Source: Alphaproteobacteria bacterium
Lineage (GTDB): Bacteria > Pseudomonadota > Alphaproteobacteria > SP197
Direction: 5' to 3'
DNA: 64,000 nucleotides
Assembly: GCA_965200745.1 (NCBI GenBank)
Contig: CBDAUZ010000002.1
Coordinates: 53,928 to 117,927 of the forward strand
The notes beneath the pieces were generated by a model. The model was given only the letters and a program-made list of their open reading frames with translations, was not told the origin of the DNA and did no database searches. The position numbers were made by a program, and so were the translations under genes. Below, piece after piece: positions 18,083 to 35,760 of this stretch (its first letter is position 1; the number at the start of each line of letters is the position of its first letter).

Positions 18083-18296
18083 CGCATCCTCCTTGCTTTC
18101 GCCGATAGGGTTTGGCCAGATCATACGCCGCTCTCTGCTGGCACCGAACACAGAAACCCGAGAAACAGCTATACCAGAAATGCACATCGGCGCGTCCAAT
18201 ACTCCAGTTTTGTCATATCAGATAATTGATTGGCGCTGCTTCATTTGCGTTCGCGTGTGTATCACCCTTGTGCTGTGGTCACAGGAGAGTGTCGAG

Positions 18297-19853: not shown

Positions 19854-19906
19854 GTCTATGGTGGAAAGGAATTCATGAACTTTTGGCTGCTTCCGGAAGA
19901 CCACGC

Positions 19907-21946
19907 ATGAGTGCTTACTCCGCTCTACGATCATCCTTGCAGCTTGGTCCGTTGACCCTGCGAAACCGGCTTGTGAGCACAGCACACGCCAACGGGTATG
20001 TAACCGGTGGAGTGCCTGGTGAACGATATCAACGCTACCACGAGGAACGCGCACGCGGCGGGTTGGCGCTCAGTGTTTTCGGGGGCTCGTCAAACGTGGC
20101 ACGGGATTCCGGAGCAATCTACGGACAGATTTACGTTGGTGATGACAAGGTCATCCCGCATTTCCAGAGCTTTGCCAAACGCATGCATGCCCATGGCTGC
20201 GCGCTGATCTGCCAGATCAGTCACATGGGCCGGCGCACGTCATGGAAGGGAGGCGACTGGATCGGCACGGTCGGCCCCTCTGCAGTTCGTGATCCAGGAC
20301 ATCACTCGATGCCCCGTGAGGCTCGACACGAGGATATTTCGAGAATTGTCAGGCACTTCGGAGATGCCGCAGTACGATGTCAAGAAGGGGGACTGGACGG
20401 GTGCGAGATCCTGGCGTCGGTCCATATCCTTGGCCAGTTCTTGTCGCCGCTCAGCAACTTCAGGGAGGATGAATACGGCGGTTCGTTGCAAAACCGTATG
20501 CGGTTTTTGACCGAAGTTCTTGCAGAAGTTCGCAGCCGTGTCGGTGCGGAGTTCGTGGTTGGGCTTCGCTACACAGCGGACGAGACGAATGAAGGCGGCC
20601 TTGGACCAGGGGAGGGTGTCGAGATTGCCAAAGCGATCGCGGCAACCGGGCTTGTTTCGTATCTCAGCCTCAACGGGGCGTATGGAGGCTCTGCAAAGGG
20701 AATGTCCGAAGCCTTTCCCGGCATGGGCACACCCTCGGCGCCCTATCTCGACATCGCTCGAAAGGTCCGAGAGGCGAGTGGGCTTCCGGTCATGCACGCT
20801 GCGCGCATCACCGATGCAGCAACCGCCGATTTTGCCATCACCAGCGGCGCGCTCGACATGGTGGGCATGGTACGGCCGCACATTGCCGACCCTCATATCA
20901 TGGCCAAGCTGAAGAAGGGACAAGAGCGCCGGATCCGGCCCTGTGTCGGAGCGGGTGCCTGCATTGATCGTGTTGATCTGGGTGGAGACATGATTTGTAC
21001 GCATAATGTCACCGCCGGTCGGGAGGGCCGTTTTCCCGATCACTACGCGCCATCGGATACGCCCCGAAAGGTTGTCATCGTGGGCGGAGGGCCTGCCGGG
21101 TTAGAGGCCGCGCGTGTGGCCCGATTGCGCGGACATGAGGTTGTGCTTCTCGAAGCATCCGACCGTTTGGGCGGACAGGTCTTGCTTGCGGCGAAAGCAC
21201 GTTCACGCCAGGACATGATCGGGATCACGGAGTGGTTGTCGTCGGAGCTTCACGAATTGGGGGTCGATAACCGTTACAACATTTACGCTGAGACAAGCGA
21301 CGTACTGAACCTCAAGCCGGACACCGTCATCATCGCAACCGGCGGTGTTCCGCAGCAACGGCTCGAAGATGGCGGGGAAGACCTCGCCATGACAAGCTGG
21401 GATGCTTTTCTGCTACCGGATGCGCCACGAGGGCGCTGCCTGGTTTACGACGAGAATGGCGGACATTGCGCGATTTCGTTGGTCGAAACACTGGCCGCGA
21501 AAGGGGTGGCGGTTGAGTTCATGACACCCTACCGGCGGGTCGGGAACGAGCTTGGCGGCCAAACCTACCCCCAATACCTCGAAGAGCTTTATCGCTTTGA
21601 TGTGACGTTGACACCAGATCACCGCCTCATCGGATTGCGCCGTTCGGGCAATTGCCTCACGGCTATTGTCAAGAACATGTTCACCAGACAAACAAAAGAG
21701 CTGGAGTTCGACAATGTCATCGTCGAACAGGGCACCGTTCCGATCAGCCAACTCTTCAACGACCTTGGGCCACTGTCGACAAACAGGGGGATCACTGACT
21801 GGGATGCTTTGGCCGACGGGCTGCCTCAGCCCGTTACCGCGGCATCGGACGGGGCTTTCAACCTTTTTGCAATCGGAGATGCAGTGTCCAGCCGGGACAT
21901 CCATTCAGCAATGTTCGATGCAAATCGGATTGCGCGCAACCTGTAA
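19907..21946 (+). CDS. OYE-like FMN plus FAD/NAD(P)-binding flavoprotein of the TMADH / 2,4-dienoyl-CoA reductase / N-methylproline demethylase (StcD) family
   Basis: ORF 19883..21946 with the ATG at 19907 after GGAAGA. It has an N-terminal TIM-barrel OYE region, a Cys-motif segment (CVGAGACIDRVDLGGDMICTHNVTAGRE) and the dinucleotide fold VVIVGGGPAGLEAA. Confidence 0.85.
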   Translation: MSAYSALRSSLQLGPLTLRNRLVSTAHANGYVTGGVPGERYQRYHEERARGGLALSVFGGSSNVARDSGAIYGQIYVGDDKVIPHFQSFAKRMHAHGCALICQISHMGRRTSWKGGDWIGTVGPSAVRDPGHHSMPREARHEDISRIVRHFGDAAVRCQEGGLDGCEILASVHILGQFLSPLSNFREDEYGGSLQNRMRFLTEVLAEVRSRVGAEFVVGLRYTADETNEGGLGPGEGVEIAKAIAATGLVSYLSLNGAYGGSAKGMSEAFPGMGTPSAPYLDIARKVREASGLPVMHAARITDAATADFAITSGALDMVGMVRPHIADPHIMAKLKKGQERRIRPCVGAGACIDRVDLGGDMICTHNVTAGREGRFPDHYAPSDTPRKVVIVGGGPAGLEAARVARLRGHEVVLLEASDRLGGQVLLAAKARSRQDMIGITEWLSSELHELGVDNRYNIYAETSDVLNLKPDTVIIATGGVPQQRLEDGGEDLAMTSWDAFLLPDAPRGRCLVYDENGGHCAISLVETLAAKGVAVEFMTPYRRVGNELGGQTYPQYLEELYRFDVTLTPDHRLIGLRRSGNCLTAIVKNMFTRQTKELEFDNVIVEQGTVPISQLFNDLGPLSTNRGITDWDALADGLPQPVTAASDGAFNLFAIGDAVSSRDIHSAMFDANRIARNL

Positions 21947-23198: not shown

Positions 23199-24206
23199 AT
23201 GTCGATGATCCAGCTTGTCCTCGCAAGAAGGCCGGGCATGACGCTGAATACGGGTGATACCGAGTTGGTGGAACGGGACGTTCCGGAACCCGGCGATGGT
23301 CAATTTCGCATCAAGCTGAGCCATATTGCGCTTGAGGTGTCGATGATTGGATGGATGCGGGAAGGCCGGTCCTATCTGCCCAATATCGCAATCGGTGATC
23401 CGATCAGGGCCACGGGTGTTGGCATTGTCGAGGGCAGCTTGCACCCCGGATACAAGGCGGGTGATCTGGTGACCGGACTGTTTGACGCTAGCACACATAC
23501 GATCAGCGACGGCAAGGTTGCGGTCAAACTTGATGCAACCGCGGTGTCGCCTGAGGCCTGGGCTGGTGCCCTTGGGTTAACGACAGCATTCACGAGCTTC
23601 GTCGGAATGAGCTTTGGGCAGCAAGACCTGAGCGGAAATACGGTGCTGGTCACGGGCACGTCCGGTCTGGTCGGTGGGTATGCTGCTCAGCTTGCCAAGC
23701 AACGGGGTGCGCGTGTCATTGGAACTGCCGGTTCAGAAGAGGCCTGCCGCGACGTGGAACGGAAGTATCGGGTCGACCATTGCCTGAACTATAACAACGA
23801 GCGCGATATCGAGAGTACGTTGTCGGAGCTGTGCCCAGATCGCATCGATATGTTTTACGACAATGTCGGCGGCACGATTTTTGACGCAGCCCTCGGCCGA
23901 ATGAACGCTTTCGGGAGCATTGTCATGTGTGGCCAGACATCCGAACGTGGTCTCGCCTCACCTCCACCCGTCACGAACATTCGGACAATGATCATGGAGC
24001 GCCTGACGATGCGCGGGTTCGTTGTTTTTGACCACCCCAACCTTTTCGCAGACGCTGCGCAATGGATTTCCGAAGGCGTGTCTTCCGGTGCGTTGGTGAA
24101 GCCACATGAGGACATTAGTCACCCAGGTGGTCTGGCAGAATTCCACGACGCCTACTCGGCTCTGGTAGGGGACGCTCGAAAGGGTAAACACGTTCTGTGC
24201 CTTTAG
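23199..24206 (+). CDS. NADP-dependent MDR-superfamily oxidoreductase (YncB/CurA-type enone/alkenal reductase-like)
   Basis: 335-aa ORF with the Rossmann motif VLVTGTSGLVGGYAAQLAKQRGARVIGTAGS and no zinc-ligand pattern. Confidence 0.85.
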   Translation: MSMIQLVLARRPGMTLNTGDTELVERDVPEPGDGQFRIKLSHIALEVSMIGWMREGRSYLPNIAIGDPIRATGVGIVEGSLHPGYKAGDLVTGLFDASTHTISDGKVAVKLDATAVSPEAWAGALGLTTAFTSFVGMSFGQQDLSGNTVLVTGTSGLVGGYAAQLAKQRGARVIGTAGSEEACRDVERKYRVDHCLNYNNERDIESTLSELCPDRIDMFYDNVGGTIFDAALGRMNAFGSIVMCGQTSERGLASPPPVTNIRTMIMERLTMRGFVVFDHPNLFADAAQWISEGVSSGALVKPHEDISHPGGLAEFHDAYSALVGDARKGKHVLCL

Positions 24207-24349
24207 GTGGCAAGGGATTCGTTTTCCAGGCTATTGAGAACGAACGACTAATCGGGATCTGAACTGGCAATCGATTGGCGCATTTCTTCTTCTAGCCAGC
24301 TTTCAAATGCCAATGCGATAGTCTTTGTTGGTCGTTTTTCTGGCTTCAG

Positions 24350-24380
24350 CCCAAGTTGTCAGTTGTAGTGACAACTTGGG
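24350..24380. promoter_or_regulatory. Perfect 12-bp inverted repeat CCCAAGTTGTCA-N7-TGACAACTTGGG about 45 nt upstream of MttB paralog 2
   Basis: Read directly from the sequence. It could be an operator, or an RNA hairpin (terminator or attenuator) after the MDR gene. No clear T-run follows. Confidence 0.3.
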
Positions 24381-24422
24381 TTATCATTCGGGAATGAGGT
24401 CTCATACGGATGTGGTAGCGCA

Positions 24423-26006
24423 ATGAGCCATTCTTCGGCGCACAGGACCCGCAGGGGTGGTCGTCGTGCATCGCGTCGCGGAGCGGCAGAGGCTGGCGAC
24501 ATGGACGGCGCATGGCAAGGCGCATGGGGTGCGCCGAAAGGGGGCGTTGATCGTCCATTCAAGAACCGTCTACCCGCTTACGACATCCTCAGCGCAGACG
24601 AGCTTGAAGCGGTTCATCTTGCATCGGTTAAAATCCTGCAAGAGATCGGAATTCGCGTCCGAGGCGATCCGCATGCGCTGGAACTGTGGAAAGCGGCAGG
24701 TGCGGAGGTCAGGGGCGATATCGTTCGCATCCCACAGGACTTGATTGAACGGCTTCTGTCACTGGCACCGGAAGAGTTCACTCAACACGCAAGAAACCCC
24801 GCACGCAGCGTGACCTTTGGTGCTGACAATGTCGTCTTTTCACCAATCTTTGCCTCGCCGTTCGTGCGGGACCTGGAAAACAAGCGACGCCAAGCGACGT
24901 TGTCGGACCTGCACAACCTGCTCAAGCTGACGCAAATGTCGTCCTGCCTGAACTATGGGGGCGCGCAAATCTGTGAACCCATGGACGTGCCCGGACCCAA
25001 GCGCCATTTGGAAATGGTGCGCGGTCACCTGACGTACTCGGAAAAGCCCTTTATGGGAGATGCGCGTGCGGATTGGCGCGCAAAGGATTCCTTCGAGATG
25101 TGCGGGATCGTCTTCGGCAAGGAATTTGCCCGAAAAAATGTCGTTCTTTTGGGGTTGGTCACGGCGTCCTCTCCTCGTTTGTGGGACGCGGACATGCTCA
25201 AGACCCTCAGGTACTACGCCGAGATGGGCCAATCGTTGTTGATAACGCCCTTCATCATGCAAGGTGCCAACACGCCGGTGACAATCGCCGGCGCACTGGC
25301 ACAGGCGAATGCCGAGGCGATGTTCGGCATGACCTACGCCCAGTTGGTGCGGCCGGGCACACCGGTGATTTACGGGTGTTCTCTGGCCACCGTTTCAATG
25401 AAGAGCGGAGCCCCGCTTTATGGCACAAGCGAGATCGCACGCTTAACGTTGGCTATGGGGCAATTGGCCAGACGCTACAAGGTTCCCTACCGCATTGGCG
25501 GGGTGCGGAACGGAAGCATGGAGTCTGACGTCAGCACCGGCGCTCAGAACGCCGTGACAATGATGCCGGCCCTTTTGGCAAAGGCAAATTTCATACTCCA
25601 TTCAGTTGGCTGGCTCGAAAACTCCATGTCGGTGAGTTTTGCCCAGTTTATCATGGATCTCGATCAGCTCGCGCTGCTGCAGGAATTTGTGAAAGGCATC
25701 GACATCAACGAGGAAACTCTCGCGCTTGAGGCCATCGCGTGCGCCCAGCCAGCTGGGGATTATTTTTCCAATCCGCATACGATCAAACACTACCGGTCCA
25801 CGTTTATCGAACCCATGATGCCCGCGTGGGGGACGTTTGATGCCTTTGAGGCTGCCGGTTCGCCAAGCATGATATCTTCCGCCTTGGGCTGGGCAAAACG
25901 CGCCTTGGATGCATACGAACCGCCTCCGTTGGATGTGGACGCAAAGGAGGAACTCGATGCCTTTGTGGAGAAACGAATGGCTGAACTACCGGATATCGAA
26001 ACGTAA
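24423..26006 (+). CDS. MttB-superfamily protein, non-Pyl paralog 2
   Basis: 527-aa ORF with the blocks GANTPVTIAGAL and SMKSGAPLYGTSE and an Arg-rich N-terminus (HRTRRGGRRASRRG). There is no in-frame amber codon. Confidence 0.9.
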   Translation: MSHSSAHRTRRGGRRASRRGAAEAGDMDGAWQGAWGAPKGGVDRPFKNRLPAYDILSADELEAVHLASVKILQEIGIRVRGDPHALELWKAAGAEVRGDIVRIPQDLIERLLSLAPEEFTQHARNPARSVTFGADNVVFSPIFASPFVRDLENKRRQATLSDLHNLLKLTQMSSCLNYGGAQICEPMDVPGPKRHLEMVRGHLTYSEKPFMGDARADWRAKDSFEMCGIVFGKEFARKNVVLLGLVTASSPRLWDADMLKTLRYYAEMGQSLLITPFIMQGANTPVTIAGALAQANAEAMFGMTYAQLVRPGTPVIYGCSLATVSMKSGAPLYGTSEIARLTLAMGQLARRYKVPYRIGGVRNGSMESDVSTGAQNAVTMMPALLAKANFILHSVGWLENSMSVSFAQFIMDLDQLALLQEFVKGIDINEETLALEAIACAQPAGDYFSNPHTIKHYRSTFIEPMMPAWGTFDAFEAAGSPSMISSALGWAKRALDAYEPPPLDVDAKEELDAFVEKRMAELPDIET

Positions 26007-26356
26007 GCGACGCACGAACTCCGGTTACGGTTCGCCAGTCGTTCCCCCTGAAGCGCGGGCGGCAACGACGTCGATCTCAATCTAAAGCGCAGGGTCGAAC
26101 AATTCGACGATCACGCCGGTCACAGCCGCGCTCATGTGTTCTCCCAAGGCCTCAATTCGGGCTGCCTTGCTAAGACCCAGATTGTCCCGATCCGTCAGGG
26201 GCATCTTGAGGCGAACCAGATCCTGTGGCCCGCGGCGTCAATCCCCTCAAGAAAAGCTTTGACGTTGCGCCATGCCTGCAGGAACCTCAACCGCGTTGTA
26301 ATAAAGGCCGTGCGCGGGATAAAGTGTATCGGGGTCGAATTTACTGCTCGCTCTTC

Positions 26357-26992
26357 TCATGTCGTCGCTCCCTTACGGTCTTTGTCCCACTCGATGGAGG
26401 CGCGATCCCCGTCATCAATCCAACTTGCAACGGCCAGCATCGGGGCATCACCCGTTCGCATTTCATGCATCTGCCAGCTGTCGTGAAAAATCAAATCCCC
26501 GGCCTCGACCTCGAACCAATCGCCATTGTCCAGCCGCCACTGCGTGCCGGGTGTCAGCAGCAGGTAGATTTCGCGCGCATCGTGGTTGTGCCCAGGGTAA
26601 AGCAGATTGGGCGCCATGAGCATGATACCTGTGCGCGGTGCCGCCCAGACGAGTGCGGTGTCAGTGCCAGACAGCCCAGCATAGGCATAGCCATTCAGAA
26701 ACGCCTGCGAGCAATTGCTTTCATTGTAGCTGGAATTTTGTGACCACCTGAAATGCGATGCGGCGTCGGCCACGGCCTCGGCCAATCCGGACAATTTGTG
26801 CTTTCTGGCTAGATCCAAAGCGGACGCCAGATGTTCCAACACGGGAAAAGCGTCGCCGAAACGGGCCTCGTTTGGCCGAGGTTCCGTTTCGACGATCTGG
26901 GGCATCGGGACATGACGCCCGACGGTTACATCCCTGGTGGCCGCGATCTCTTGCCATATACGCCTGACCAGCGGTTCCATATCGATCGTCAT
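26357..26992 (-). CDS. Cupin-fold protein, DddL-like (DMSP-lyase family PF16867-like), paralog A
   Basis: ORF 26357..27058. The cupin metal motif is YPGHNHDAREIYLLL...FHDSWQMHEMRTGDAPML. I prefer the start at codon 23 (MTIDMEP), which gives a 4-nt ATGA overlap with the upstream paralog. The family call is from memory of DddL motifs. Confidence 0.6.
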   Translation of the reverse strand: MTIDMEPLVRRIWQEIAATRDVTVGRHVPMPQIVETEPRPNEARFGDAFPVLEHLASALDLARKHKLSGLAEAVADAASHFRWSQNSSYNESNCSQAFLNGYAYAGLSGTDTALVWAAPRTGIMLMAPNLLYPGHNHDAREIYLLLTPGTQWRLDNGDWFEVEAGDLIFHDSWQMHEMRTGDAPMLAVASWIDDGDRASIEWDKDRKGATT

Positions 26993-27651
26993 GTCCTGAC
27001 CTCCTCGTTCTGCTGTGCTCCTGAGAACCGGGACTTCACTGGCGTTTGCTCGTCCCACACAAGGCCGATCAGCAGGGGCTGGCCCTGATCCATGCGCACA
27101 CCGTGCGGCTGCCAGGGAGGGTTATGAATGACACTGCCGGGCAGCTTGGTTTGCCATTCCGCATCGCCAATCTTCCACGAAGCAGTGCCGGACAGGACCA
27201 CATAAAACTCCTCGGCAGAGTGCGCATGAACAGGATATTCGACATCCGGGCCCAGCAACAGGACGCCGGCCAGCAAGTGATCGCTCTTTATCGGGGCGTC
27301 CGAACTGATGAAAAGCGTCCAACCGTATCGCTCCAGGAAGACCTGGCTCACATCGTCCTCGGAATAGGTTTGTCGCCACCGAAGACTGCCACTGATCCCA
27401 ACCAGTCGGCGTACAAATTCGGCCGTCGCTTCTGGCGCCTGTTCTGCTACCTCTGCCAGCCAGTCGGTGACGGGCAGGTCATGCGCTTCGCACAAGTCTA
27501 TGATTGTGTCCGGAGGCGGCCATTTGTCCAGAATACGCCCGATATCAGCATGATCCACGCCGCGAAAGATATCGTGCAACGCATCGGCTGCGGCCGCTAT
27601 GCCGTCCTCAGCGTTCTCCCTCCGCTGCCAGTCTGTCTGTTCCTGCGCCAC
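26989..27651 (-). CDS. Cupin-fold protein, DddL-like, paralog B
   Basis: 220-aa ORF (GTG start) with YPVHAHSAEEFYVVLSG...HNPPWQPHGVRMDQGQPLL. Confidence 0.6.
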   Translation of the reverse strand: MAQEQTDWQRRENAEDGIAAAADALHDIFRGVDHADIGRILDKWPPPDTIIDLCEAHDLPVTDWLAEVAEQAPEATAEFVRRLVGISGSLRWRQTYSEDDVSQVFLERYGWTLFISSDAPIKSDHLLAGVLLLGPDVEYPVHAHSAEEFYVVLSGTASWKIGDAEWQTKLPGSVIHNPPWQPHGVRMDQGQPLLIGLVWDEQTPVKSRFSGAQQNEEVRT

Positions 27652-27750
27652 GCGCTACAGGCCTCCAACATCAATCCCCGGAACCGTAAACAAGCGCTAT
27701 CCAGTCGGGTCTTTTCCCGCAAAGTTATTCTGATCAGATGCCTCCCTCAA

Positions 27751-29271
27751 CTAGGCCGCTGCGATGTTGGCCTTGCGTATTTCGATATATGACATCAACT
27801 CTTCCTCAACGCCGGGATCGAGTGAAGGTTGCTCATATTCCTGCAAGAGCTGCTTCCAGAAAGCATGTGCCCTTTGCACAGTATCCCTTGAACCCTCTTC
27901 CACCCATTTCTCAAGATTGCTCCAGTCCGACAGCATCGGTTGATAAAACGCATCCTTGTATCGTTCGAGGGTCTGTGGCGCGGCAAAAAAATGGCCGCCA
28001 GGACCCACCTCTTCGATGTCCTGAACACCAAGGTTTTCCGACTTGAACGACAGCGGTTTCATCGCCTCGTTCACCATCTGTAGCATCTCCGAGTCGATGA
28101 TCATTTTCTCGTATGAGAACGTCAGCCCCGACTCCATCCAGCCATGCGCAAAATTGAGCAAACTCACCCCCCCAAGGACGGCCCCCCAGATCGACATCTG
28201 CGACTCGTAGATCGCCTGCGCGTCGATGACATTGGAGGAGTTGACGTTTCCCGACCTCAGCGGCAAGCCATATCGCCGCGCCAGTTGCCCCGCGACGATG
28301 ATCCCCTTCATGTATTCGGGTGTACCGAATGATGGCGATCCTGACTTCATATGAACGCTGGTGGCGAGCGAGCCATAGACGACCGCTGCACCCGCTCTGA
28401 CGATCTGCGATAACGTGATGCCTGCCAGTATCTCGGCATTCTGTTGCACCAGACTGCCTTCAACGGTGATTGGCCCGGTCGCCCCCGCCATGGCGAGGGA
28501 GGCAATGACACAGGCCTGCCCCATGCTCGCCATCCGAATGAGGGCGTCTGTCATGGGCTGATCAATTTTCATCGGGCTGTTGATGCTGATATTGGTGATG
28601 AGCCCAGGGTCCTTCACCAGCTGTTCCGTGCTGATACCGCGGGCAATCGCGGCCATCTGCAGGCCGTCTTCGATCGAGTCTGGCGCGACAGCTGTGGGCC
28701 TCCAGACTTTATCGGTAAGGCACAATATCGACGCATAGGCGTCGAGATGACGGGAGCTGGGCGGTAAATCCTGCGGTTCGACCGGGTAACCGTAAATGCA
28801 ATGCACGGTATTCAGGCACTGACACAGCTTTATCAAGTCATTGAAATCAGAGTAGGTCCCGCTCCGGCGTCCCCTGTCCAGATCGGAGCAATAGGGCGGA
28901 ACCGTTGCCGGGGTGAACACCATGTGTATATCGTCAAAGACAAGATTGTGCGCCGGGTTGCGTGCATAAAGGGTAAAACTTTTCGGCGCCAACTTGATCT
29001 TGTCTTCGACAAGCGCAGGGTCTAGCCGCACGCGGCAGTTGGCTTCATCCACATCTGCACCAGTCGCCTTAAATCGTTTCCGCGCGTCGTCGCTTACGAC
29101 TTCAAGCCCAACATCCCGTAACAGCCTTAAAGAAGCCTGATGGAGCGCTTCAATCTCGTCCTCGCTGACGATAGAAATCGGGCCGAACCGGTTAACTGGC
29201 TGAGACCAGGGTTTCTGCGAGATTCTCGCAACGGCAGTCTCCCGACGATTGCGTTTTGTTCGTCTGGACAT
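27751..29271 (-). CDS. MttB-superfamily protein, non-Pyl paralog 3
   Basis: ORF 27751..29340. I prefer the ATG at 29271 (MSRRTKRNRRE) after GGGAGG. Blocks are GATGPITVEGSL, HMKSGSPSFGTPE and GPGGHFFAAPQT. Confidence 0.9.
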   Translation of the reverse strand: MSRRTKRNRRETAVARISQKPWSQPVNRFGPISIVSEDEIEALHQASLRLLRDVGLEVVSDDARKRFKATGADVDEANCRVRLDPALVEDKIKLAPKSFTLYARNPAHNLVFDDIHMVFTPATVPPYCSDLDRGRRSGTYSDFNDLIKLCQCLNTVHCIYGYPVEPQDLPPSSRHLDAYASILCLTDKVWRPTAVAPDSIEDGLQMAAIARGISTEQLVKDPGLITNISINSPMKIDQPMTDALIRMASMGQACVIASLAMAGATGPITVEGSLVQQNAEILAGITLSQIVRAGAAVVYGSLATSVHMKSGSPSFGTPEYMKGIIVAGQLARRYGLPLRSGNVNSSNVIDAQAIYESQMSIWGAVLGGVSLLNFAHGWMESGLTFSYEKMIIDSEMLQMVNEAMKPLSFKSENLGVQDIEEVGPGGHFFAAPQTLERYKDAFYQPMLSDWSNLEKWVEEGSRDTVQRAHAFWKQLLQEYEQPSLDPGVEEELMSYIEIRKANIAAA

Positions 29272-29346
29272 TGATGAAGAGCCTCCCTTTTCTGTTCTGA
29301 TGCCGGCGTCTGAACTGCGTGCGAACGCGCTTCCTTTCATCGCATG

Positions 29347-29367
29347 GGATCACGCGGTTCGTGATCC
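29347..29367. promoter_or_regulatory. Inverted repeat GGATCACG-N5-CGTGATCC upstream of MttB paralog 3
   Basis: Perfect 8-bp arms, 76-96 nt upstream of the preferred start on the minus strand. This is a candidate operator. Confidence 0.3.
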
Positions 29368-29499
29368 AGACCATGTGTGCTTGTCCAAACCGAAGCACGT
29401 TAGATCAACGACACGAGGACGAGCAATTCTGTACGCAGAAGTGTCTCTAAGTACCCGAATCTTGATAGTTTTCTCGGTATGCTTTACGTCACTCTGCGC

Positions 29500-29877
29500 G
29501 GCGCGAAAGCCAACTCATGTCCTATGATCCGCATAGTCCAACCCCGTCACACCAAACATGAAAAGCAAGGTTCCGGCGGACATTCGTTATCCGCGTATAA
29601 TCTGAACCCCAATTCGCGGAGGAGTGAAGGCGCTTCGACCAACGCGGAAAATTGCAATGGGCAGAAGGATAAGAAAGTATCCCGAGAACCGGAACCAACC
29701 GACAGGAAATGGTGACAGGCTATCTGTTGCCAGCTTCATCAAAGAGCCACTGAAAGCGGCCAGTGCAAGGCCAGGAATGATGCGCATTATGCCTGAGCGC
29801 ACTGCTTCGACTTCGGTGTTTTTGAGAGCGTCCAATTCAACTTTGTTGGCGCACGGTTCAGCCAAGGACAAACACAT
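29500..29877 (-). pseudogene. EamA/DMT-family transporter N-terminal remnant
   Basis: The 96-aa ORF 29587..29877 reads MRIIPGLALAAFSGSLMKLATDSLSPFPVGWFRFSGYFLILLPIAIF...IIRG, like the first EamA repeat. The reading then appears to continue in another frame (MSAGTLLFMFGVTGLDYA) before stopping. No full-length gene is present. Confidence 0.35.
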
Positions 29878-30191
29878 GCTTCTATGAAGGCATTATGGCT
29901 TCCAGTGCCGCCAATAAACAGACGACTGCCCGCCGGGTGCGGATGCACGATAGTAATTTGACGGATCATCACACGTGCGGCTTCAGGAAGCGACTTTCCT
30001 TGCGAAACAGAAAAGGTGATATGCATGAGATACGACCGGTGAATTGGCCGCACATCGTTTGCCATCATAGGCGTTTGTTACTAGCGTCTTGGAATATGAA
30101 GCGCAAAGACGCCAACACTGGCTTTTGTTGAGAGGGGCGCACTGTTTAATCTGGTTAAGCACTCCTAATAACACTCGGTTTTTCAACAAAA

Positions 30192-30212
30192 AATGGCGCG
30201 GAAAGCGCCGTT
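30192..30212 (-). terminator. Orphan terminator-like hairpin (AACGGCGC-TTTCC-GCGCCATT followed by a T-run on the minus strand)
   Basis: An 8-bp stem with a GGAAA/TTTCC loop. On the minus strand it is followed by TTTTTTGTTG. No annotated minus-strand gene ends here. Confidence 0.3.
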
Positions 30213-30293
30213 GTATTTAATCGGGTTGTCAGAGGTTGCTGGCGTTCAGAAAACACTAAAACACTCGCCCCAGGACGGTACGAAGAGGCTTGG

Positions 30294-31268
30294 GTGGCGA
30301 AGTGGTGGGAGGAATTTGTGTACAGTCTGATCGCGAAACGTGTGGGCATTGGTCTCATCATCGTTTTTGCCGTCTCAATCATCATTTTTCTCGGCACGCA
30401 AGTGTTGCCGGGCGATGCCGCACAGATCCGGCTGGGTCAGGAAGCGACCCCTGAAAACGTCGCAGCGATGCGGGAACGGCTTGGCCTTGATCTGCCGCAC
30501 TGGCAACAATACTGGAACTGGTTGATTGCCTTCCTGCAGGGCGACCTCGGCACGTCTCTTGCCGGCGACATCCCCGTTTCAAGCCTTCTGGAAGATCGCT
30601 ACATGAACACGGTGATCGTGACTGTGCTGACAGCGCTGATCGGAGTTCCGATCTCGCTCGCCCTCGGCATCACGGCAGCCATGTTCCCCGGTAGCCTTTT
30701 CGACCGGGTCCTGACCATCGTTTCCGTGACCCTGGTCGCCGCACCCGAGTTCTTCACCGCCACTTTGATGGTTGTGATACTCGTTCTCGCGCTCGGCATC
30801 GGGAATGCGGTCGTTGTCGGCAGTATTGAGGGAAAGAACATATTCGAACTGATTGCGCATTTCGCGCTGCCGATTGCGGCACTCTGCTTCGTGATTGCCT
30901 CGCAGCTTATACGTATGTCACGCGCGGCGGTGCTCAACGTAATGAACTCGCCCTATATCGAAATGGCCATCCTCAAAGGGATCCCGCGGCGTGTAATTAT
31001 TCTGCGCCATGCCCTGCTCAACGCGATTGGCCCCATCGTAAATGTCGTGGCACTCAACCTTGCCTATCTCGTCACCGGGGTGATCGTGATCGAGGTCTAT
31101 TTCTCGTATCCCGGCCTGGCGACACTGATTGTGCAAGGCGTGCAGACACGTGATTTCGTCGTCGTACAGTCGATCGGAATGCTCTTCTGCCTGACCTACG
31201 TCATTCTCATGTTGCTTGCGGATATCGCTGCCATTGTATCGAACCCTCGCTTGAGGCACCCGAAATGA
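30294..31268 (+). CDS. ABC transporter permease (DppB/OppB-type)
   Basis: 324-aa polytopic ORF with the N-terminal IAKRVGIGLIIVFAVSIIIFL typical of the peptide/opine permease family. Confidence 0.9.
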   Translation: MAKWWEEFVYSLIAKRVGIGLIIVFAVSIIIFLGTQVLPGDAAQIRLGQEATPENVAAMRERLGLDLPHWQQYWNWLIAFLQGDLGTSLAGDIPVSSLLEDRYMNTVIVTVLTALIGVPISLALGITAAMFPGSLFDRVLTIVSVTLVAAPEFFTATLMVVILVLALGIGNAVVVGSIEGKNIFELIAHFALPIAALCFVIASQLIRMSRAAVLNVMNSPYIEMAILKGIPRRVIILRHALLNAIGPIVNVVALNLAYLVTGVIVIEVYFSYPGLATLIVQGVQTRDFVVVQSIGMLFCLTYVILMLLADIAAIVSNPRLRHPK

Positions 31269-32197
31269 CAGATCAGAAAAATCCGCTGCTTGAACACTAC
31301 GTGGCCCCCCATGGCGATGACATCGTGTTCGACGAACTGCATGACGCGGCCCCGAGCGGAAAGTTTAAACTCTCGATTACCGGCAAGGTCGGCCTGGTCG
31401 TGGTGTGCTTCTGGATATTTATCGCGCTCTTCGGCCAGTTTTTGGCACCTTACGGTGAAAACGACCTCCCGTTTCCTGATGATTACAGCGAGTTTCAAGC
31501 ACCCCGGGCCGGGGCGTGGCTGGGGACCGACACAGATGACAGAGACGTGCTGTCGCGCATTATGTACGGTGCCGGGCGGACGTTGGGCATCTCCGTGGCC
31601 GCCACGGTGATGGCCTATGTCGTCGGCGTCATACTCGGCATTGGCGCTGCCGTGACCGGGCCCCGGGTCGACATGATCATCAGCCGCATCAACGATGCAT
31701 TCCTAAGCTTACCAACGATCATGCTGGGGCTTGTGGTTGTTGCTGCCGCCGGATCAAGCATACCGGTGCTGATTATGACGGCGGGGTTCATCTATGCCTG
31801 TGTTGTCTTCCGATTGGCCCGAGCCATCGGCATGGAAGTTCTTGTGATGGACTTCGTCGAGGTCGCCAAGGTGCGCGGCGAAAGCACTTGGTGGGTGATT
31901 GTCAAGGAAGTCTGGCCAAACGCCGCTATGCCTCTGATCTCTGATTTTGGGTTGCGACTGATCTACGTTATTCTGTTCATCGCCAGCCTCAGCTTCCTTG
32001 GCCTGGGAGTTCAGCCGCCACAAGCGGATTGGGGATCCATGGTGCGCGAAAACCTTGGCGCGTTTGTATCGTTTGACGGTTCAATTGTACCGGTTCTGGC
32101 ACCCGCCATTGCCATTGCCACACTAACGGTTGGGATCAACCTGATTGTTGATGACATATCCGCCCATGCCGGCGGCAAGCTGAGTAATCGCCTGTGA
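31265..32197 (+). CDS. ABC transporter permease (DppC/OppC-type)
   Basis: 310-aa polytopic ORF with 4-nt overlaps on both neighbours. Confidence 0.9.
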   Translation: MTDQKNPLLEHYVAPHGDDIVFDELHDAAPSGKFKLSITGKVGLVVVCFWIFIALFGQFLAPYGENDLPFPDDYSEFQAPRAGAWLGTDTDDRDVLSRIMYGAGRTLGISVAATVMAYVVGVILGIGAAVTGPRVDMIISRINDAFLSLPTIMLGLVVVAAAGSSIPVLIMTAGFIYACVVFRLARAIGMEVLVMDFVEVAKVRGESTWWVIVKEVWPNAAMPLISDFGLRLIYVILFIASLSFLGLGVQPPQADWGSMVRENLGAFVSFDGSIVPVLAPAIAIATLTVGINLIVDDISAHAGGKLSNRL

Positions 32198-34032
32198 CAG
32201 TTCTGGAGAATGAAATCGTCTTCGAGGCGAAAGACCTTCGGATTCACGCCGTGCGCGATGACGGGTCTGAACTGCCGATTGTCAAGGGTGTCGACATCCA
32301 CATACCGCGCGGAAGCGTCGTTGCCCTGATCGGTGAATCCGGTTCAGGTAAGACGACGATTTCACTCTCCGCGCTTGGGTATTTCAAACCTGGTCTAGTG
32401 TTTGCTGGCGGTGAAGCAAGATTGCTTGGTCAGGACCTCACCAAAATGACGACGGACGAACTTCGCCCGATCCGGGGAGAGAAGGTCGCCTATCTCGCGC
32501 AAAGCGCCGCAGCCACTTTCAATCCGTCGCTCAAGATCAACGAACAAGTCACCGAGGCGCCAGTCAGGCACGGGACAAAGACACAGGCAGAAGCGGATGC
32601 AAAAGCATTGGAGCTCTACAAGGCACTCGAATTGCCAGATCCTGAGAACATCGGCAATCGCTACCCGCACCAGGTTTCTGGCGGACAGTTGCAGCGCCTC
32701 ATGGCGGCGATGGCCCTTTGCGGTGATCCTGATCTGCTGGTTCTTGATGAGCCCACAACGGCTCTGGACGTGACCACTCAGATTGAGGTCCTGAAGTCTT
32801 TCAAGAAGGTGATCAAGGAAGAAGGTGCTGCGGCCATATACGTCACACATGACCTGGCAGTTGTAGCGCAGATCGCTGACTATATCGTCGTGTTGTATGA
32901 CGGGGAGATACAGGAGAAGGGCCCCGTCGATGTCATCATCAACAATCCACAACACCCGTATACCAAGCGCCTCATGGCGGCGGTTCGTCCAACCCCTGCG
33001 GCGGGCCAATCGGACGAGGATACAGGACAGCACGATCGTGAAGTTCCCGCGCTCGAAGTAAAGGACATCACGGCCGGGTACGGGCATGGGGCGGGGGCGC
33101 GTCCGCTGGTCACCATCCTACGCGACGTGAACCTGACGATTGAGCGTGGCCACACGGTCGGTATCATTGGCGAATCCGGTTGTGGCAAATCCACTTTGGC
33201 GCGGGTGATGGCCGGATTGTTGCCGCCTGCCGATGGCGAAATGGAGTTGAACGGGTCTCCGATCGCTGGTTCCTATCGGCGTCGAAGCAAGGCAGAACTC
33301 AGGACCATCCAGTTTGTTTATCAGATGGCGGATACAGCCCTCAATCCAAAGCACAGGATTTCGGATATTATCGGGCGCCCCTTGGAACTAAACCTTGGGG
33401 TAGGCAGCAAGGAGAAGCACGAGAAAATCAGCGATGTCCTGAAGATGGTCGACTTGCAGACGGATTTCGCGTCGCGATTCCCACACGAGTTATCCGGTGG
33501 TCAAAAACAGCGTGTGAACTTGGCACGCGCCCTTGCCGCTGGACCAGAGATAGTTTTGTGTGACGAGGTCACGTCCGCGCTGGACACGATCGTGCGTGCT
33601 AATGTCATCGAACTGCTCAAGCGTTTGCGGCGTGACACGGGCGTATCTTTTGTCTTTATCAGCCACGATTTATCGACGGTCGCCTCCTTTGCAGATGAGA
33701 TAGTCGTGCTCTACGCAGGTCGTGTCGCCGAACGTGGACCCACGGACCAGGTGCTTTCACCACCCTACCACCCTTACACGCAATTGCTCATGTCGTCCGT
33801 ACCTGAGATGCGGGTTGGCTGGCTGGAAGAAACACTGCAGCGTCAGGAAACCTTGGCGGGTATATCTCGTGGGGTCACGTTGACCAATGTCGGCTGCCCG
33901 TTCTTCAATCGTTGTCCTGTGGCCATCGAGGGAACTTGTGACAAGGTGGACCCGCCTCAAAGGTATGACAAAAAAGGGCATGGTCACTTCATCGAATGCC
34001 ATCGCGAGCTTGACGAATTGACAAGCGGGTAG
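32194..34032 (+). CDS. Fused double ABC ATPase (DppD-DppF type)
   Basis: 612 aa with two Walker A motifs (GESGSGKTT, GESGCGKST), two signature motifs (VSGGQLQR, LSGGQKQR) and a Cys-rich C-terminal oligopeptide-type tail. Confidence 0.9.
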   Translation: MTVLENEIVFEAKDLRIHAVRDDGSELPIVKGVDIHIPRGSVVALIGESGSGKTTISLSALGYFKPGLVFAGGEARLLGQDLTKMTTDELRPIRGEKVAYLAQSAAATFNPSLKINEQVTEAPVRHGTKTQAEADAKALELYKALELPDPENIGNRYPHQVSGGQLQRLMAAMALCGDPDLLVLDEPTTALDVTTQIEVLKSFKKVIKEEGAAAIYVTHDLAVVAQIADYIVVLYDGEIQEKGPVDVIINNPQHPYTKRLMAAVRPTPAAGQSDEDTGQHDREVPALEVKDITAGYGHGAGARPLVTILRDVNLTIERGHTVGIIGESGCGKSTLARVMAGLLPPADGEMELNGSPIAGSYRRRSKAELRTIQFVYQMADTALNPKHRISDIIGRPLELNLGVGSKEKHEKISDVLKMVDLQTDFASRFPHELSGGQKQRVNLARALAAGPEIVLCDEVTSALDTIVRANVIELLKRLRRDTGVSFVFISHDLSTVASFADEIVVLYAGRVAERGPTDQVLSPPYHPYTQLLMSSVPEMRVGWLEETLQRQETLAGISRGVTLTNVGCPFFNRCPVAIEGTCDKVDPPQRYDKKGHGHFIECHRELDELTSG

Positions 34033-34131
34033 CGGATTGCGGCTCAGACAACGTCGCGGGGCTTCCTTCTCATATACATGACCAAACCAAACACCCCCGG
34101 TTTTGAAGCCGGGGGTGTTTCGCATCCTTGG

Positions 34132-35760
34132 TTACGCGTCGTCCCGCCACAGATACGGTGGCGACTCCGCGCCACCGAAGTGGTTCAGCGGTACGCTCGT
34201 ACGACCTTTCACATAGTCTGCCGCGGCATCCACGTAATCAAGGTGCGCAGGCGTGATGCTGCCGGCGGTTTCATGGATCATTGTCTGCATATCACAGTAC
34301 ATCTGCTTACGTTGCGCAGGATCCGTCACCGCCAGAACGTTGGTGAGCAGCTCGTCGAACAGATCGTTCTTCCAGTAGGTCTCGTTCCACTTGGAATCGC
34401 CCTTGTATGTCAGCGACAACATGATGTTCGCGGTGGGACGCGGGTTCCAGCGCACGACACAGAACGGATCTTTCAACCAGACCGCGCTCCAGTACCCATC
34501 CGGCGCGACTTTCTTGACGGTCACGTTCATGCCTATTTTCGCGGCTTCGCGTTGGGTCGACGTCGCCATTTCAACAACGCCCGCACCGATCTCCGCAGCG
34601 GTGATCGGAATCTCCGTGCCGCCGATGCCGGACTGCTCGAAATGCCATTTCGCTTTGTCGAGATCGAGTTCGCGTTGCGGGATGTCCGCGCAGTGATCGA
34701 AATAGGCAGGGCCAATTGGTTGGTCGTTGCCCAGACTGCCGTGGCCTTTCAGGGCGCCCTTCACAACGCGGTTGCGATCCTGCAAGTACTTCAAAGCCAG
34801 GATGACATGCTGGTTTTCGCCCGGTGCAATATCCGTGCGGCCGGCGATGGTAATGTAGCCACCCGCTTTCAGCGCCCAAAGACTAATGCCTTCCGTCGCT
34901 TCAACCGATGAAATTGCTTTCGGAGATACCGCGGCAATTGCGTCTACATCACCGTTCAGCAGGGCATTCACACGGGCAACAGGATCGCCGATTCCGAAAT
35001 GATGCAACTCGTCCAGATAGCCGCCTTCTTCCGAATAATTCTCGAAACGTTCGCCGATGCAGCGGACACCCGGCTTGAACTCCTTTACCTTGTAGGGACC
35101 TGTGCCAATCGCGGTGCTTGAGAAATCCGTGTATCCTTCGGGGATGATCTTGAAATGGAAGGTCCCAAGAGAGATGGGCAGATCCGCGTTTGGCCGGCTC
35201 AGGACAGCGACGACCTCATGGTCATTCACTTTCTTCCATTCCGTGATCATGGACACCAACGATGCAGCGCCAGAGGTTGAGCTTGCACCGATGTGGCGGT
35301 TCATGGAGTAGATGACGTCATCTGCCGTCATGGTCTTGCCGTTATGGAATTCCACGCCCTTGCGAAGCTTGAAAGTCCACTGCGTTGCATCCGCATTGGG
35401 AATGATTTCTTCGGCCAATTCTGGTGCGTAGGAAAGATCATCCTGCAAGCGCGTCAGGGAGCCAAAGAACATGCGGCCGCGGAAATAATCGACCGTCGCT
35501 CGATAGCCCGCAGGATCGAGCTGGTCATCCGGGCCGTGCGAATCCACCGCGAACTTCAGGACTCCGCCCCGCTTGGGCGTGTTCGCGAGTGCTTGCGTTG
35601 CCCCACCAACGATCAAGCCTGAAGCCGTTACAGTCAGACCGGTTGCCATCAGCATCTTGATCGCGTCGCGACGCGTGGCACCTTTGCGCAGCATGTGCAG
35701 AAGGGGCTCGCGATAACTGTAACCCAGATCACCAAATTCGTTCGGTTTGCGTTTAGTCAT
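34132..35760 (-). CDS. ABC transporter substrate-binding protein, family 5 (peptide/nickel/opine), Tat-type signal
   Basis: 542-aa ORF with the twin-arginine leader TRRDAIKMLMATGLTVTASGLIVGGATQALA and an SBP_bac_5-like body. Confidence 0.9.
   Translation of the reverse strand: MTKRKPNEFGDLGYSYREPLLHMLRKGATRRDAIKMLMATGLTVTASGLIVGGATQALANTPKRGGVLKFAVDSHGPDDQLDPAGYRATVDYFRGRMFFGSLTRLQDDLSYAPELAEEIIPNADATQWTFKLRKGVEFHNGKTMTADDVIYSMNRHIGASSTSGAASLVSMITEWKKVNDHEVVAVLSRPNADLPISLGTFHFKIIPEGYTDFSSTAIGTGPYKVKEFKPGVRCIGERFENYSEEGGYLDELHHFGIGDPVARVNALLNGDVDAIAAVSPKAISSVEATEGISLWALKAGGYITIAGRTDIAPGENQHVILALKYLQDRNRVVKGALKGHGSLGNDQPIGPAYFDHCADIPQRELDLDKAKWHFEQSGIGGTEIPITAAEIGAGVVEMATSTQREAAKIGMNVTVKKVAPDGYWSAVWLKDPFCVVRWNPRPTANIMLSLTYKGDSKWNETYWKNDLFDELLTNVLAVTDPAQRKQMYCDMQTMIHETAGSITPAHLDYVDAAADYVKGRTSVPLNHFGGAESPPYLWRDDA

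What the first reader, a model, noticed from the sequence alone, without database searches (positions are those of the whole stretch)
26357..29271. Operon of MttB paralog 3 followed by two translationally coupled DddL-like cupins
Seen: on the minus strand MttB3 (stop 27751) is followed after 99 nt by a 220-aa cupin and then a 211-aa cupin, with a 4-nt ATGA overlap between them. Both cupins carry HxHxxxE...H metal motifs and resemble, from memory, the DMSP-lyase (DddL, PF16867) family. Known: DddL cleaves the sulfonium DMSP to DMS plus acrylate, and many family members are uncharacterised. Inference: the operon pairs an onium-compound methyltransferase with two putative onium lyases. I know of no described pathway with this combination. 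The nearby MDR enone-reductase-like gene (23199-24206) could handle an acrylate-like product.
Basis: partly seen in the sequence, partly recalled or inferred. Interest (0 to 1): 0.65.

Follow-up and report, generated by a model that had tools for sequence, protein, structure and literature searches.

The report
MttB methyltransferase operon with two DddQ-like cupins
A sponge-associated bacterium has one operon that joins a cobalamin-type methyltransferase for methylated "onium" compounds to two uncharacterised relatives of DMSP lyases, a pairing that recurs in other uncultured bacteria and probably marks an undescribed route for breaking down a betaine- or DMSP-like compound.

Summary
On the minus strand, MttB3 (27751-29271) is followed after 99 nt by a 220-aa cupin and a 211-aa cupin joined by an ATGA overlap. 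Both cupins hit Pfam PF16867 far above generic cupin models. Both keep HxHxxxExY, the second His and the Trp, and both fold like DddQ.

- **Not known lyases.** They are not orthologues of DddQ or DddU. They belong to two separate uncharacterised clades that were found only in MAGs and metagenomes. DddL could not be tested.
- **A missed fourth gene.** A RidA gene follows cup2. It is intact in relatives and a pseudogene here. A neighbouring DAO oxidase gene has been deleted.
- **The adjacency is not unique.** Every evaluable MttB3-orthologue locus carries a PF16867 cupin. A second lineage pairs a very different MttB with a different cupin clade.
- **The adjacency is not general.** Most members of both cupin clades lack MttB. 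The cup1-cup2-RidA module also sits behind an ABC importer with CoA-transferase and enoyl-CoA hydratase genes.

Best reading: catabolism of an imported carboxylate-bearing methyl-onium compound by demethylation plus metal-dependent beta-elimination. The substrate is unknown.

The parts
27751..29271 (-). MttB3, a non-pyrrolysine MttB-superfamily methyltransferase (506 aa from the ATG at 29271; an upstream ATG at 29340 is less likely)
   Evidence: PF06253 scores 579.5 bits. TIGR02369, the Pyl-type TMA methyltransferase model, scores 340 bits against a cutoff of 525. The best PDB match is the glycine betaine methyltransferase MtgB at 343 bits. The carboxylate-binding Arg (MtgB R312) is kept, but the glycine-betaine aromatic pair is changed, Y97 to T and F356 to G (PMC13080624). 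A GGGAGG ribosome-binding site lies before 29271.
27652..27750 (-). 99-nt spacer between MttB3 and cup1
   Evidence: No terminator-like site lies in the spacer. Metatranscriptome contigs X17 (24381-28407) and X18 (25473-28035) run across it.
26989..27651 (-). cup1, a 220-aa PF16867 (cupin-DLL) protein of the cup1 clade
   Evidence: PF16867 scores 103.1 bits. The motif residues are H142/H144/E148/Y150, H183 and W199. The AF2 model has pLDDT 92.5, and its best PDB matches are DddQ at TM 0.85-0.87 normalised by target length. It forms a clade separate from DddQ and DddU.
26357..26992 (-). cup2, a 211-aa PF16867 (cupin-DLL) protein of the cup2 clade, translationally coupled to cup1 by an ATGA overlap
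   Evidence: PF16867 scores 118.9 bits. The motif residues are H135/H137/E141/Y143, H176 and W191. The AF2 model has pLDDT 93.7, and its best PDB matches are DddQ at TM 0.67-0.73. It is 28% identical to cup1.
26079..26360 (-). RidA (Ribonuc_L-PSP family) pseudogene. Its ATG overlaps the cup2 stop (ATGA), and it carries an internal deletion of about 86 bp and in-frame stops
   Evidence: tblastn with the intact RidA genes of L120 and L001 matches here. blastn against L001 shows 77 bp missing at window 26271/26279. The intact orthologues hit PF01042. Metatranscriptome contigs show no indel at this position, so the lesion is real in the population.
24423..26006 (+). MttB2, a convergent second MttB paralogue and a conserved member of the cluster
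   Evidence: PF06253 scores 577 bits. It is 34.5% identical to MttB3. It is syntenic in L001-3, L120 and L121 at 74-96% identity.
29527..29835 (-). Remnant (N-terminal 103 aa) of an EamA transporter gene, marking the scar of a 1986-bp deletion that removed the rest of EamA and a DAO-family FAD oxidoreductase gene
   Evidence: tblastn locates the remnant. blastn of L001 against the window places the junction at 29527/29535. DAO is present in L001-3, L030, L118 and L123.
30294..35760 (.). Dpp/Opp-type ABC importer: two permeases and a double ATPase on the + strand (30294-34032) and an SBP_bac_5 binding protein on the - strand (34132-35760)
   Evidence: Orthologues at 62-76% identity sit in one operon with the nearest MttB3 homologue and a DAO gene in Shimia gijangensis. 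They are also syntenic in L001, L030, L118 and L120.

Best explanation
MttB3, cup1, cup2 and, ancestrally, RidA form one operon inside a catabolic cluster for an imported, carboxylate-bearing methylated onium compound, either a betaine or a DMSP-like sulfonium.

**Shown**
- The gene order, the overlapping starts and the family memberships.
- The intact active-site residues in both cupins and their DddQ-like predicted folds.
- Conservation of the MttB3-cupin linkage across the MttB3 orthogroup.
- An independent recurrence of an MttB-cupin pairing in a second lineage.
- Linkage of the Dpp-type ABC importer to the MttB3 lineage.

**Inferred**
- The ABC system imports the substrate.
- MttB3 transfers one methyl group to a cob(I)alamin protein encoded elsewhere, as the MtgB/MtgC/MtgD system does in aerobic roseobacters.
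- The two cupins are mononuclear-metal lyases. Their conserved Tyr abstracts the proton next to the carboxylate and expels a beta leaving group, either from the same compound or from a demethylated derivative.
- The unsaturated or enamine product is finished by RidA. In other genomes a class III CoA-transferase and an enoyl-CoA hydratase also act on it.
- In relatives, the DAO oxidase removes further N-methyl groups.

Both cupins keep all catalytic residues under conservation, so both are probably active enzymes. They may have different substrates or stereochemistry, or they may form a heteromer. This strain has lost RidA and DAO but keeps MttB3, cup1 and cup2 intact.
For: **Anatomy and family**
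- Gene order, ribosome-binding sites and both ATGA overlaps.
- PF16867 and PF06253 scores.
- Clade-wide invariance of the active-site residues.
- DddQ-like predicted folds.

**Linkage of MttB3 to cupins**
- MttB3 orthologues at 78-93% identity are followed by a cup1-clade gene, even where cup1 has drifted to about 50% identity. These are L118, L120, L001-3 and L030.
- L121 keeps a PF16867 fragment in the cluster.
- A second lineage (L039, L043, L048, L092, L095) pairs an MttB only about 25% identical to the window's with Usp and a different cupin clade.

**The cupin module elsewhere**
- cup1-cup2-RidA recurs in L031, L110 and L120.
- In L110 and L119 the pair sits behind SBP5-permease-permease-ATPase with CoA_transf_3. 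L110 also has ECH after RidA; in L119 the contig ends inside cup2.
- That layout matches the AcuN/AcuK logic of the ddd-acu cluster described for DddU (PMC11497337).

**Importer and cofactor**
- Shimia encodes LysR followed by MttB (57%), DAO and an ABC importer, with the ABC proteins 62-76% identical to the window's.
- MttB3 keeps the carboxylate-binding Arg of MtgB but not its glycine-betaine cage (PMC13080624).
- Aerobic marine MtgB works with an unlinked corrinoid protein (PMC12478193).

**Expression**
- Four sponge metatranscriptome assemblies hold contigs spanning cup2-cup1. Two of them continue into MttB3.
Against: - No substrate is identified and no activity is known for either cupin clade.
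- Most cup2-clade loci (24 of 26 species genomes) and several cup1-clade loci have no MttB within 10 kb. The cupins therefore do not depend on MttB.
- The nearest MttB3 homologue outside the orthogroup (Shimia, 57%) has no cupin.
- SBP_bac_5 importers are not the usual betaine or DMSP transporters.
- The closest characterised relative, DddQ, is only 22-26% identical, and its native reaction is itself unknown (10.1101/161257).
- Metatranscriptome contigs have no strand information and may contain DNA.
- RidA and DAO are dispensable in this strain. This weakens any obligatory sequential pathway through them.
Confidence: 0.5

Rival explanations
1. The cupins are genuine DMSP (or DMSOP) lyases that release DMS and acrylate. 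MttB3 is a cobalamin-dependent DMSP demethylase. The operon would then hold both branches of DMSP catabolism.
For: - Both cupins belong to PF16867 and carry every residue needed for DddQ/DddU catalysis.
- The same cupin pair sits with AcuN-like and AcuK-like genes in L110 and L119, as in the DddU cluster.
- The host lives in sponges, a marine setting.
- MttB3 keeps a carboxylate-binding Arg, which would suit DMSP.
Against: - The cupins are only 22-26% identical to DddQ and lie in separate clades from DddQ and DddU.
- Lei et al. argue that most cupin-DLL members are not DMSP lyases and that DddQ's activity is promiscuous.
- No sulfonium substrate is among the characterised MttB-superfamily members met in the papers read here. 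That no MttB member acts on a sulfonium is my own recollection.
- A conserved RidA partner suggests a nitrogen-bearing enamine or imine, not acrylate.
- No acuI or prpE sits in the operon.
Confidence: 0.15
2. The cupins are not lyases. They use the cupin metal site for another reaction, such as epimerisation, isomerisation, oxygenation or decarboxylation, on the demethylated product of MttB3 or on an amino-acid-like intermediate. RidA and DAO handle the resulting imines.
For: - The cupin fold supports many chemistries. The next PDB matches after DddQ are gentisate dioxygenases and sugar isomerases.
- DddQ's native function is unknown, and its neighbourhood points to proline or hydroxyproline betaine catabolism.
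- DAO is the commonest neighbour of cup2-clade genes, in 8 of 27 loci.
- RidA is linked to the pair.
Against: - The full lyase signature is strictly conserved in both clades, including the Tyr that acts as base in DddQ, DddK and DddU.
- The CoA-transferase and enoyl-CoA hydratase partners in L110 fit an unsaturated-acid product.
Confidence: 0.2
3. The adjacency has no functional meaning. A mobile cup1-cup2-RidA cassette happened to land downstream of MttB3 in one lineage.
For: - The cassette occurs in a quite different context in L110 and L119, near integrase and transposase genes in L110.
- Most relatives of either cupin lack MttB.
- The region is deletion-prone in this population.
Against: - The linkage is kept across MttB3 orthologues at 78-93% identity while cup1 diverges to about 50%.
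- MttB-cupin pairing arose again with unrelated family members.
- The genes share a short spacer without a terminator-like site, and contigs from RNA libraries span them.
Confidence: 0.1

Closest known systems
DddQ (Ruegeria / Roseovarius; PDB 4LA2, 5JSO, 5CU1, 4B29)
   Same: - Both belong to Pfam family PF16867.
- Both have an N-terminal helical part plus a cupin barrel (TM 0.85-0.87 for cup1, 0.67-0.73 for cup2).
- The HxHxxxExY, His and Trp active-site residues are the same.
- As I recall, Roseovarius nubinhibens also carries two adjacent dddQ copies; 4B29 is deposited as RnDddQII.
- Lei et al. likewise link the DddQ neighbourhood to betaine catabolism.
   Different: - Identity is only 22-26%, and the cupins fall in separate clades in the tree.
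- DddQ's neighbours are a mandelate-racemase-like gene and a DMGDH-like gene. They are not MttB, RidA or a Dpp-type ABC importer.
- DddQ occurs in cultured roseobacters, whereas these clades were found only in MAGs and metagenomes.
DddU and its ddd-acu cluster (Amylibacter cionae, Phaeobacter inhibens; PMC11497337)
   Same: - Both are PF16867-annotated cupins with an equivalent His/His/Glu/Tyr/His set.
- The DddU cluster holds an ABC importer, LysR, a class III CoA-transferase and an enoyl-CoA hydratase. This resembles the L110/L119 context of the cup1-cup2 pair.
   Different: - DddU is an outlier in the tree. It aligns with cup2 over only 73 residues at 38%.
- DddU is a single cupin with no RidA and no MttB.
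- Its importer is of the betaine/proline/choline ABC type, not SBP_bac_5.
MtgB/MtgC/MtgD glycine betaine demethylation in aerobic marine bacteria (PMC12478193) and D. hafniense MtgB (2QNE/9YCE)
   Same: - MttB3 is a non-Pyl MttB-superfamily protein, and its best solved relative is MtgB.
- The carboxylate-binding Arg is conserved.
- No corrinoid protein is encoded nearby, as in Ruegeria pomeroyi.
   Different: - The glycine-betaine cation-pi pair is not conserved (Y97 to T, F356 to G).
- MttB3 belongs to a small orthogroup distinct from the many paralogues at about 50% identity.
- It is operonic with cupins, which is not described for any MtgB, MtpB, MtcB or MtyB system.
Cupin-DLL superfamily clades of unknown function (Lei, Alcolombri and Tawfik, bioRxiv 10.1101/161257)
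   Same: The superfamily is defined by the same PF16867-derived motifs. The authors state that most clades have unknown native functions, which is where cup1 and cup2 belong.
   Different: That work did not report MttB or RidA linkage or tandem heterologous cupin pairs. Which of its numbered clades, if any, corresponds to cup1 or cup2 could not be checked, because its supplementary tree was not available.

Membership tests
PF16867 DMSP_lyase / cupin-DLL superfamily | Score above the Pfam gathering threshold and above generic cupin models | tested here: met
   cup1 scores 103.1 bits and cup2 118.9 bits against a cutoff of 27. Cupin_2 scores 36.7 and 19.5 bits.
PF16867 DMSP_lyase / cupin-DLL superfamily | Motif 1 (HxHxxxExY), the motif 2 His and the trailing Trp | tested here: met
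   cup1 has H142/H144/E148/Y150/H183/W199. cup2 has H135/H137/E141/Y143/H176/W191. These residues are invariant or nearly invariant in alignments A1 and A2.
PF16867 DMSP_lyase / cupin-DLL superfamily | DddQ-type fold: helical N-terminal part packed on a cupin barrel | tested here: met
   The AF2 models have pLDDT 92.5 and 93.7. The top Foldseek hits are all DddQ, with E-values of 6e-18 and 1e-12.
PF16867 DMSP_lyase / cupin-DLL superfamily | Transition-metal dependence and DMSP cleavage activity | not testable with these tools
   This needs purified protein and a DMS or acrylate assay.
DddQ | Orthologue-level similarity and placement inside the DddQ clade | tested here: not met
   Structural alignments give 22-26% identity. 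phmmer gives only 52-59 bits. The NJ tree places the three DddQ sequences apart from both cupin clades.
DddQ | Conserved neighbourhood of a mandelate-racemase-like gene and a DMGDH-like gene (Lei et al.) | tested here: not met
   No such genes flank the cupins in the window or in L001-3, L110 or L120. Relatives have only a DAO-family gene.
DddU | More than 70% identity to Amylibacter/Phaeobacter DddU (the criterion used in PMC11497337) | tested here: not met
   The DddU orthologue L115:7836-8522 was verified by its H144/H146/E150/Y152/H185 residues. It aligns with cup2 over only 73 aa at 38% and is an outlier in the tree.
DddL | Orthologue-level similarity to Sulfitobacter/Rhodobacter DddL | not tested
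No DddL chain appears among the PDB hits.
Non-pyrrolysine MttB superfamily (MttB3) | Full-length PF06253 match without an in-frame amber codon, scoring below the Pyl-type TMA methyltransferase equivalog | tested here: met
   PF06253 scores 579.5 bits over profile positions 3-499 of 500. The ORF is uninterrupted. TIGR02369 scores 340 bits against a cutoff of 525.
MtgB (glycine betaine-specific methyltransferase) | Substrate-binding residues Y97, F356, R312 and H348 (PMC13080624) | tested here: not met
   R312 is conserved. Y97 is Thr, F356 is Gly and H348 is Phe, with a His two residues later.
RidA / YjgF (fourth gene of the operon) | Intact PF01042 ORF | tested here: not met
   Orthologues in L001, L110 and L120 hit PF01042. 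The window copy has an internal deletion of about 86 bp and stop codons.

The most novel reading that the evidence does not exclude
cup1-cup2-RidA is a new lyase/deaminase module whose native substrate is a nitrogen onium carboxylate, for example beta-alanine betaine or another beta-ammonio acid abundant in sponges. It would be the nitrogen counterpart of DMSP cleavage. In this lineage it is wired to cobalamin-dependent demethylation by a dedicated MttB. If so, it would give the first native function to uncharacterised clades of the cupin-DLL superfamily and a new substrate class for aerobic MttB enzymes.
Probability: 0.2. Interest if true: 0.7.

Novelty: new variant of a known kind. Interest (0 to 1): 0.45.

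Why it matters
- **Two families with unknown substrates.** Genes of the PF16867 family are used as markers of DMS production in ocean surveys, yet most cupin-DLL clades have no known native function. Most members of the MttB superfamily likewise have no assigned substrate.
- **A direct experiment.** A conserved operon that ties one specific MttB orthogroup to two specific cupin clades, a RidA gene and a defined ABC importer allows a direct test. Feeding candidate onium compounds to the recombinant binding protein, MttB3 and the cupins could assign substrates to all of them at once.
- **A caution for surveys.** Hits annotated 'DMSP lyase family' in sponge and marine metagenomes should not be read as DMS producers.

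Tried and rejected
- **NCBIfam scan.** There is no specific DddL, DddQ or DddU model, so it gave no equivalog test for the cupins.
- **Literature searches.** Searches combining dddQ or DMSP lyase with MttB found no paper describing the pairing.
- **DddU paper supplements.** None are held, so a DddU sequence was recovered instead from a Phaeobacter inhibens plasmid and verified by its published residue numbers.
- **Cluster look-up for organism names.** It gave almost nothing.
- **Hidden second cupin next to cup2-clade singles.** The 200-aa ORFs upstream are secreted proteins or spurious, not cupins.
- **First ORF picker.** It dropped real genes that overlapped long spurious ORFs. It was fixed before the neighbour survey.
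- **Contig-length coincidence.** P0009 and P0139 share a contig length of 7034. L121 carries only a partial cupin at its contig end, and I did not check whether that fragment is P0009.
- **Heteromer test.** The structure tool takes single chains from the window only, so no complex model was possible.
- **MDR reductase as part of the pathway.** It is syntenic only in relatives about 90% identical at the DNA level, and it is not AcuI-like.


Full report
**1.

The minus strand carries three genes.
- MttB3 has its stop codon at 27751-27753. The ATG at 29271 is preceded by GGGAGG and gives 506 aa.
- A 99-nt spacer follows at 27652-27750.
- cup1 runs 27651-26989 (GTG start, 220 aa).
- cup2 runs 26992-26357 (211 aa). 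Its ATG overlaps the cup1 stop as ATGA.

Pfam puts both cupins in PF16867 DMSP_lyase, at 103 and 119 bits. That is far above Cupin_2, AraC_binding or any other cupin model. MttB3 falls in PF06253 at 579 bits.

Both cupins carry HxHxxxExY, the second-motif His and the trailing Trp. These are the six residues that Lei, Alcolombri and Tawfik use to define the cupin-DLL superfamily. The residues are invariant or nearly invariant across relatives of each cupin. The two cupins are only 28% identical to each other.

**2. What the cupins are**

- **Solved relatives.** The only close solved relatives are DddQ proteins, at 52-59 bits by sequence.
- **Fold.** AlphaFold models are confident (pLDDT 92.5 and 93.7). 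Their top structural matches are all DddQ, with TM 0.85-0.87 for cup1 and 0.67-0.73 for cup2 at 22-26% identity.
- **Tree.** I built a neighbour-joining tree of 132 sequences. It included three DddQ sequences and a DddU orthologue, which I identified on a Phaeobacter inhibens plasmid and verified by the published residues H146, E150, Y152 and H185. cup1 and cup2 fall in two separate clades, distinct from DddQ and DddU.
- **DddL.** It could not be tested.
- **Distribution.** The cup2 clade appears in 26 of 185,579 species-representative genomes, all of them MAGs. The cup1 clade was found only in metagenomic contigs and in NCBI assemblies without a source name.
- **What the name predicts.** Published work argues that DddQ's DMSP-lyase activity is promiscuous, that its neighbourhood points to proline or hydroxyproline betaine catabolism, and that most cupin-DLL clades have unknown functions. 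The family name therefore does not predict DMS production.

**3. The operon is larger than described**

A RidA (PF01042) gene follows cup2 in the closest relatives (L001, L002), where the automatic gene caller had missed it. It also follows cup2 in L031, L110 and L120.

In the window its ATG overlaps the cup2 stop, a second ATGA. The gene has an internal deletion of about 86 bp and stop codons, so it is a pseudogene at 26079-26360.

Alignment with L001 shows further losses in this strain.
- A clean 1986-bp deletion removed a DAO-family FAD oxidoreductase and most of an EamA gene. The scar is at 29527-29535.
- A 664-bp segment that carries a 208-aa ORF in L001 is absent.
- The acyl-CoA synthetase gene next to MttB1 is truncated.

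MttB3, cup1 and cup2 remain intact.

**4. Is the MttB-cupin adjacency conserved?**

*Starting from MttB3.* Its orthogroup is small, at 78-91% identity. The next hit is at 57%, and below that lies a large set of paralogues at about 50%. Every orthogroup locus long enough to judge carries a PF16867 gene.

| Locus | Arrangement |
|---|---|
| L001-3, L030 | same synteny as the window (in L030 cup2 is cut short) |
| L120 | MttB3-cup1-cup2-RidA, with MttB2 convergent |
| L118 | MttB3 (78%) then cup1 (50%), no cup2 |
| L121 | cupin fragment at the contig end, after LysR, MttB2 and SBP5 |

The 57% homologue in Shimia gijangensis sits in an operon of LysR, MttB, DAO and an ABC importer, with no cupin. 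Its importer proteins are 62-76% identical to the window's. This ties the Dpp-type importer to this MttB lineage.

*Starting from the cupins.* MttB is not a general partner. Twenty-four of the 26 cup2-clade genomes have no MttB within 10 kb. Their commonest neighbours are DAO and ABC genes. Several cup1-clade loci also lack MttB.

The cup1-cup2 pair also occurs in a second architecture: LysR, then CoA-transferase III, SBP5, two permeases, ATPase and cup1-cup2. This is seen in L110 and L119. L110 continues with RidA and an enoyl-CoA hydratase; in L119 the contig ends inside cup2. That layout resembles the ddd-acu cluster described for DddU.

*An independent recurrence.* A separate lineage (L039, L043, L048, L092, L095) pairs an MttB only about 25% identical to the window's with a Usp gene and a cupin of another PF16867 clade. 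The pairing has therefore arisen at least twice.

**5. Mechanism**

MttB3's best solved relative is the glycine betaine methyltransferase MtgB. It keeps the Arg that binds the substrate carboxylate. It lacks the aromatic pair that cages glycine betaine (PMC13080624). This points to an acidic onium substrate other than glycine betaine.

No corrinoid protein is encoded in the window. This is normal for aerobic marine bacteria, where MtgB uses an unlinked MtgC/MtgD system.

The most likely reading has four steps.
1. The ABC system imports a carboxylate-bearing methyl-onium compound.
2. MttB3 demethylates it.
3. The cupins carry out a Tyr-initiated, metal-assisted beta-elimination on it or on a derivative.
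4. RidA, and in other genomes CoA-transferase and enoyl-CoA hydratase, process the enamine or unsaturated product.

All four steps are inferred; none is shown, and the substrate remains unknown. The gene content, conservation and residues are shown.

**6. Expression and host**

The stretch is present at 95-100% of sampled words in runs of one coded organism and in sponge metagenomes. Four sponge metatranscriptome assemblies hold contigs spanning cup2-cup1, and two of them extend into MttB3. These contigs carry no strand information and may include DNA, so this is supportive evidence only.

**7. Verdict**

- The cupins are new, uncharacterised clades of a known superfamily.
- Their linkage to a dedicated MttB, a RidA gene and a Dpp-type importer is, as far as the searched literature shows, undescribed.
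- It is a testable lead to the native chemistry of two poorly understood families. It is a variant of a known kind of system, an onium-compound catabolic cluster, not a new category.

Noticed in passing
window 26079-26360 (-): RidA-family pseudogene directly after cup2. Its start overlaps the cup2 stop (ATGA), and it has an internal deletion of about 86 bp and in-frame stops. It is intact in L001, L002, L031, L110 and L120.
   Followed up: yes
window 29341-30293 (scar at 29527-29535; EamA remnant 29527-29835): A 1986-bp deletion relative to L001 removed a DAO-family FAD oxidoreductase gene and the 3' two-thirds of an EamA transporter gene. Both lie between MttB3 and the ABC importer in relatives.
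   Followed up: yes
window 24343-24381: A 664-bp segment carrying a 208-aa ORF with no Pfam hit lies here in L001-3 and is absent from the window. Metatranscriptome contigs from the same sponge study have loose ends exactly at 24349 and 24381, so both forms seem to coexist in the population.
   Followed up: partly
window 17355-17858 (-): Only the C-terminal third of an AMP-binding acyl-CoA synthetase is present, overlapping the start of the MmgE/PrpD gene (15964-17358). Similarity to L001 ends at 17850. In L112 the full ligase, an ABC importer and PrpD form one block, so this looks like another deletion.
   Followed up: partly
window 18093-21946 (+): MttB1 is followed 30 nt later by an Oxidored_FMN + Pyr_redox_2 flavoenzyme. 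As I recall, this is the family of trimethylamine dehydrogenase and N-methylproline demethylase. The pair is conserved near cup2-clade cupins in L112 and L029, which suggests a two-step N-demethylation unit.
   Followed up: partly
L039:4327-10591; L113 (S. meliloti pSymA): In L039 an aromatic amino acid lyase (HAL/PAL family) gene and an aldehyde:ferredoxin oxidoreductase gene precede MttB-Usp-cupin. In S. meliloti pSymA a PF16867 cupin sits inside a Dpp-type ABC operon next to hutH. As I recall, some HAL-family enzymes eliminate trimethylamine from histidine-derived betaines, so this might hint at that substrate class.
   Followed up: no
L030:10660-11472: In this metagenome contig cup2 stops after 81 codons and the sequence continues into the PrpD gene, which lies 10 kb away in the window. 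This is either a further deletion variant or an assembly chimera.
   Followed up: no
window 50608-52710 (+): A 700-aa fusion of DUF1989 with a GcvT-type folate-binding aminomethyltransferase. It may be another C1-transfer enzyme in this amine-catabolic region.
   Followed up: no
window 9913-11139 (-), 12560-13588 (+): Two long ORFs (408 and 342 aa) have no Pfam hit. They flank an M19 dipeptidase gene and precede an AMP-binding ligase gene.
   Followed up: no
window 37740-38912 (-); L110:13713-14876: An AAA_14/DUF4143 ATPase gene lies a few kb from the cluster in the window. The same kind of gene sits near the cup1-cup2-RidA-ECH cluster of L110, beside integrase and transposase genes. This is a possible sign that these clusters are mobile.
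   Followed up: no
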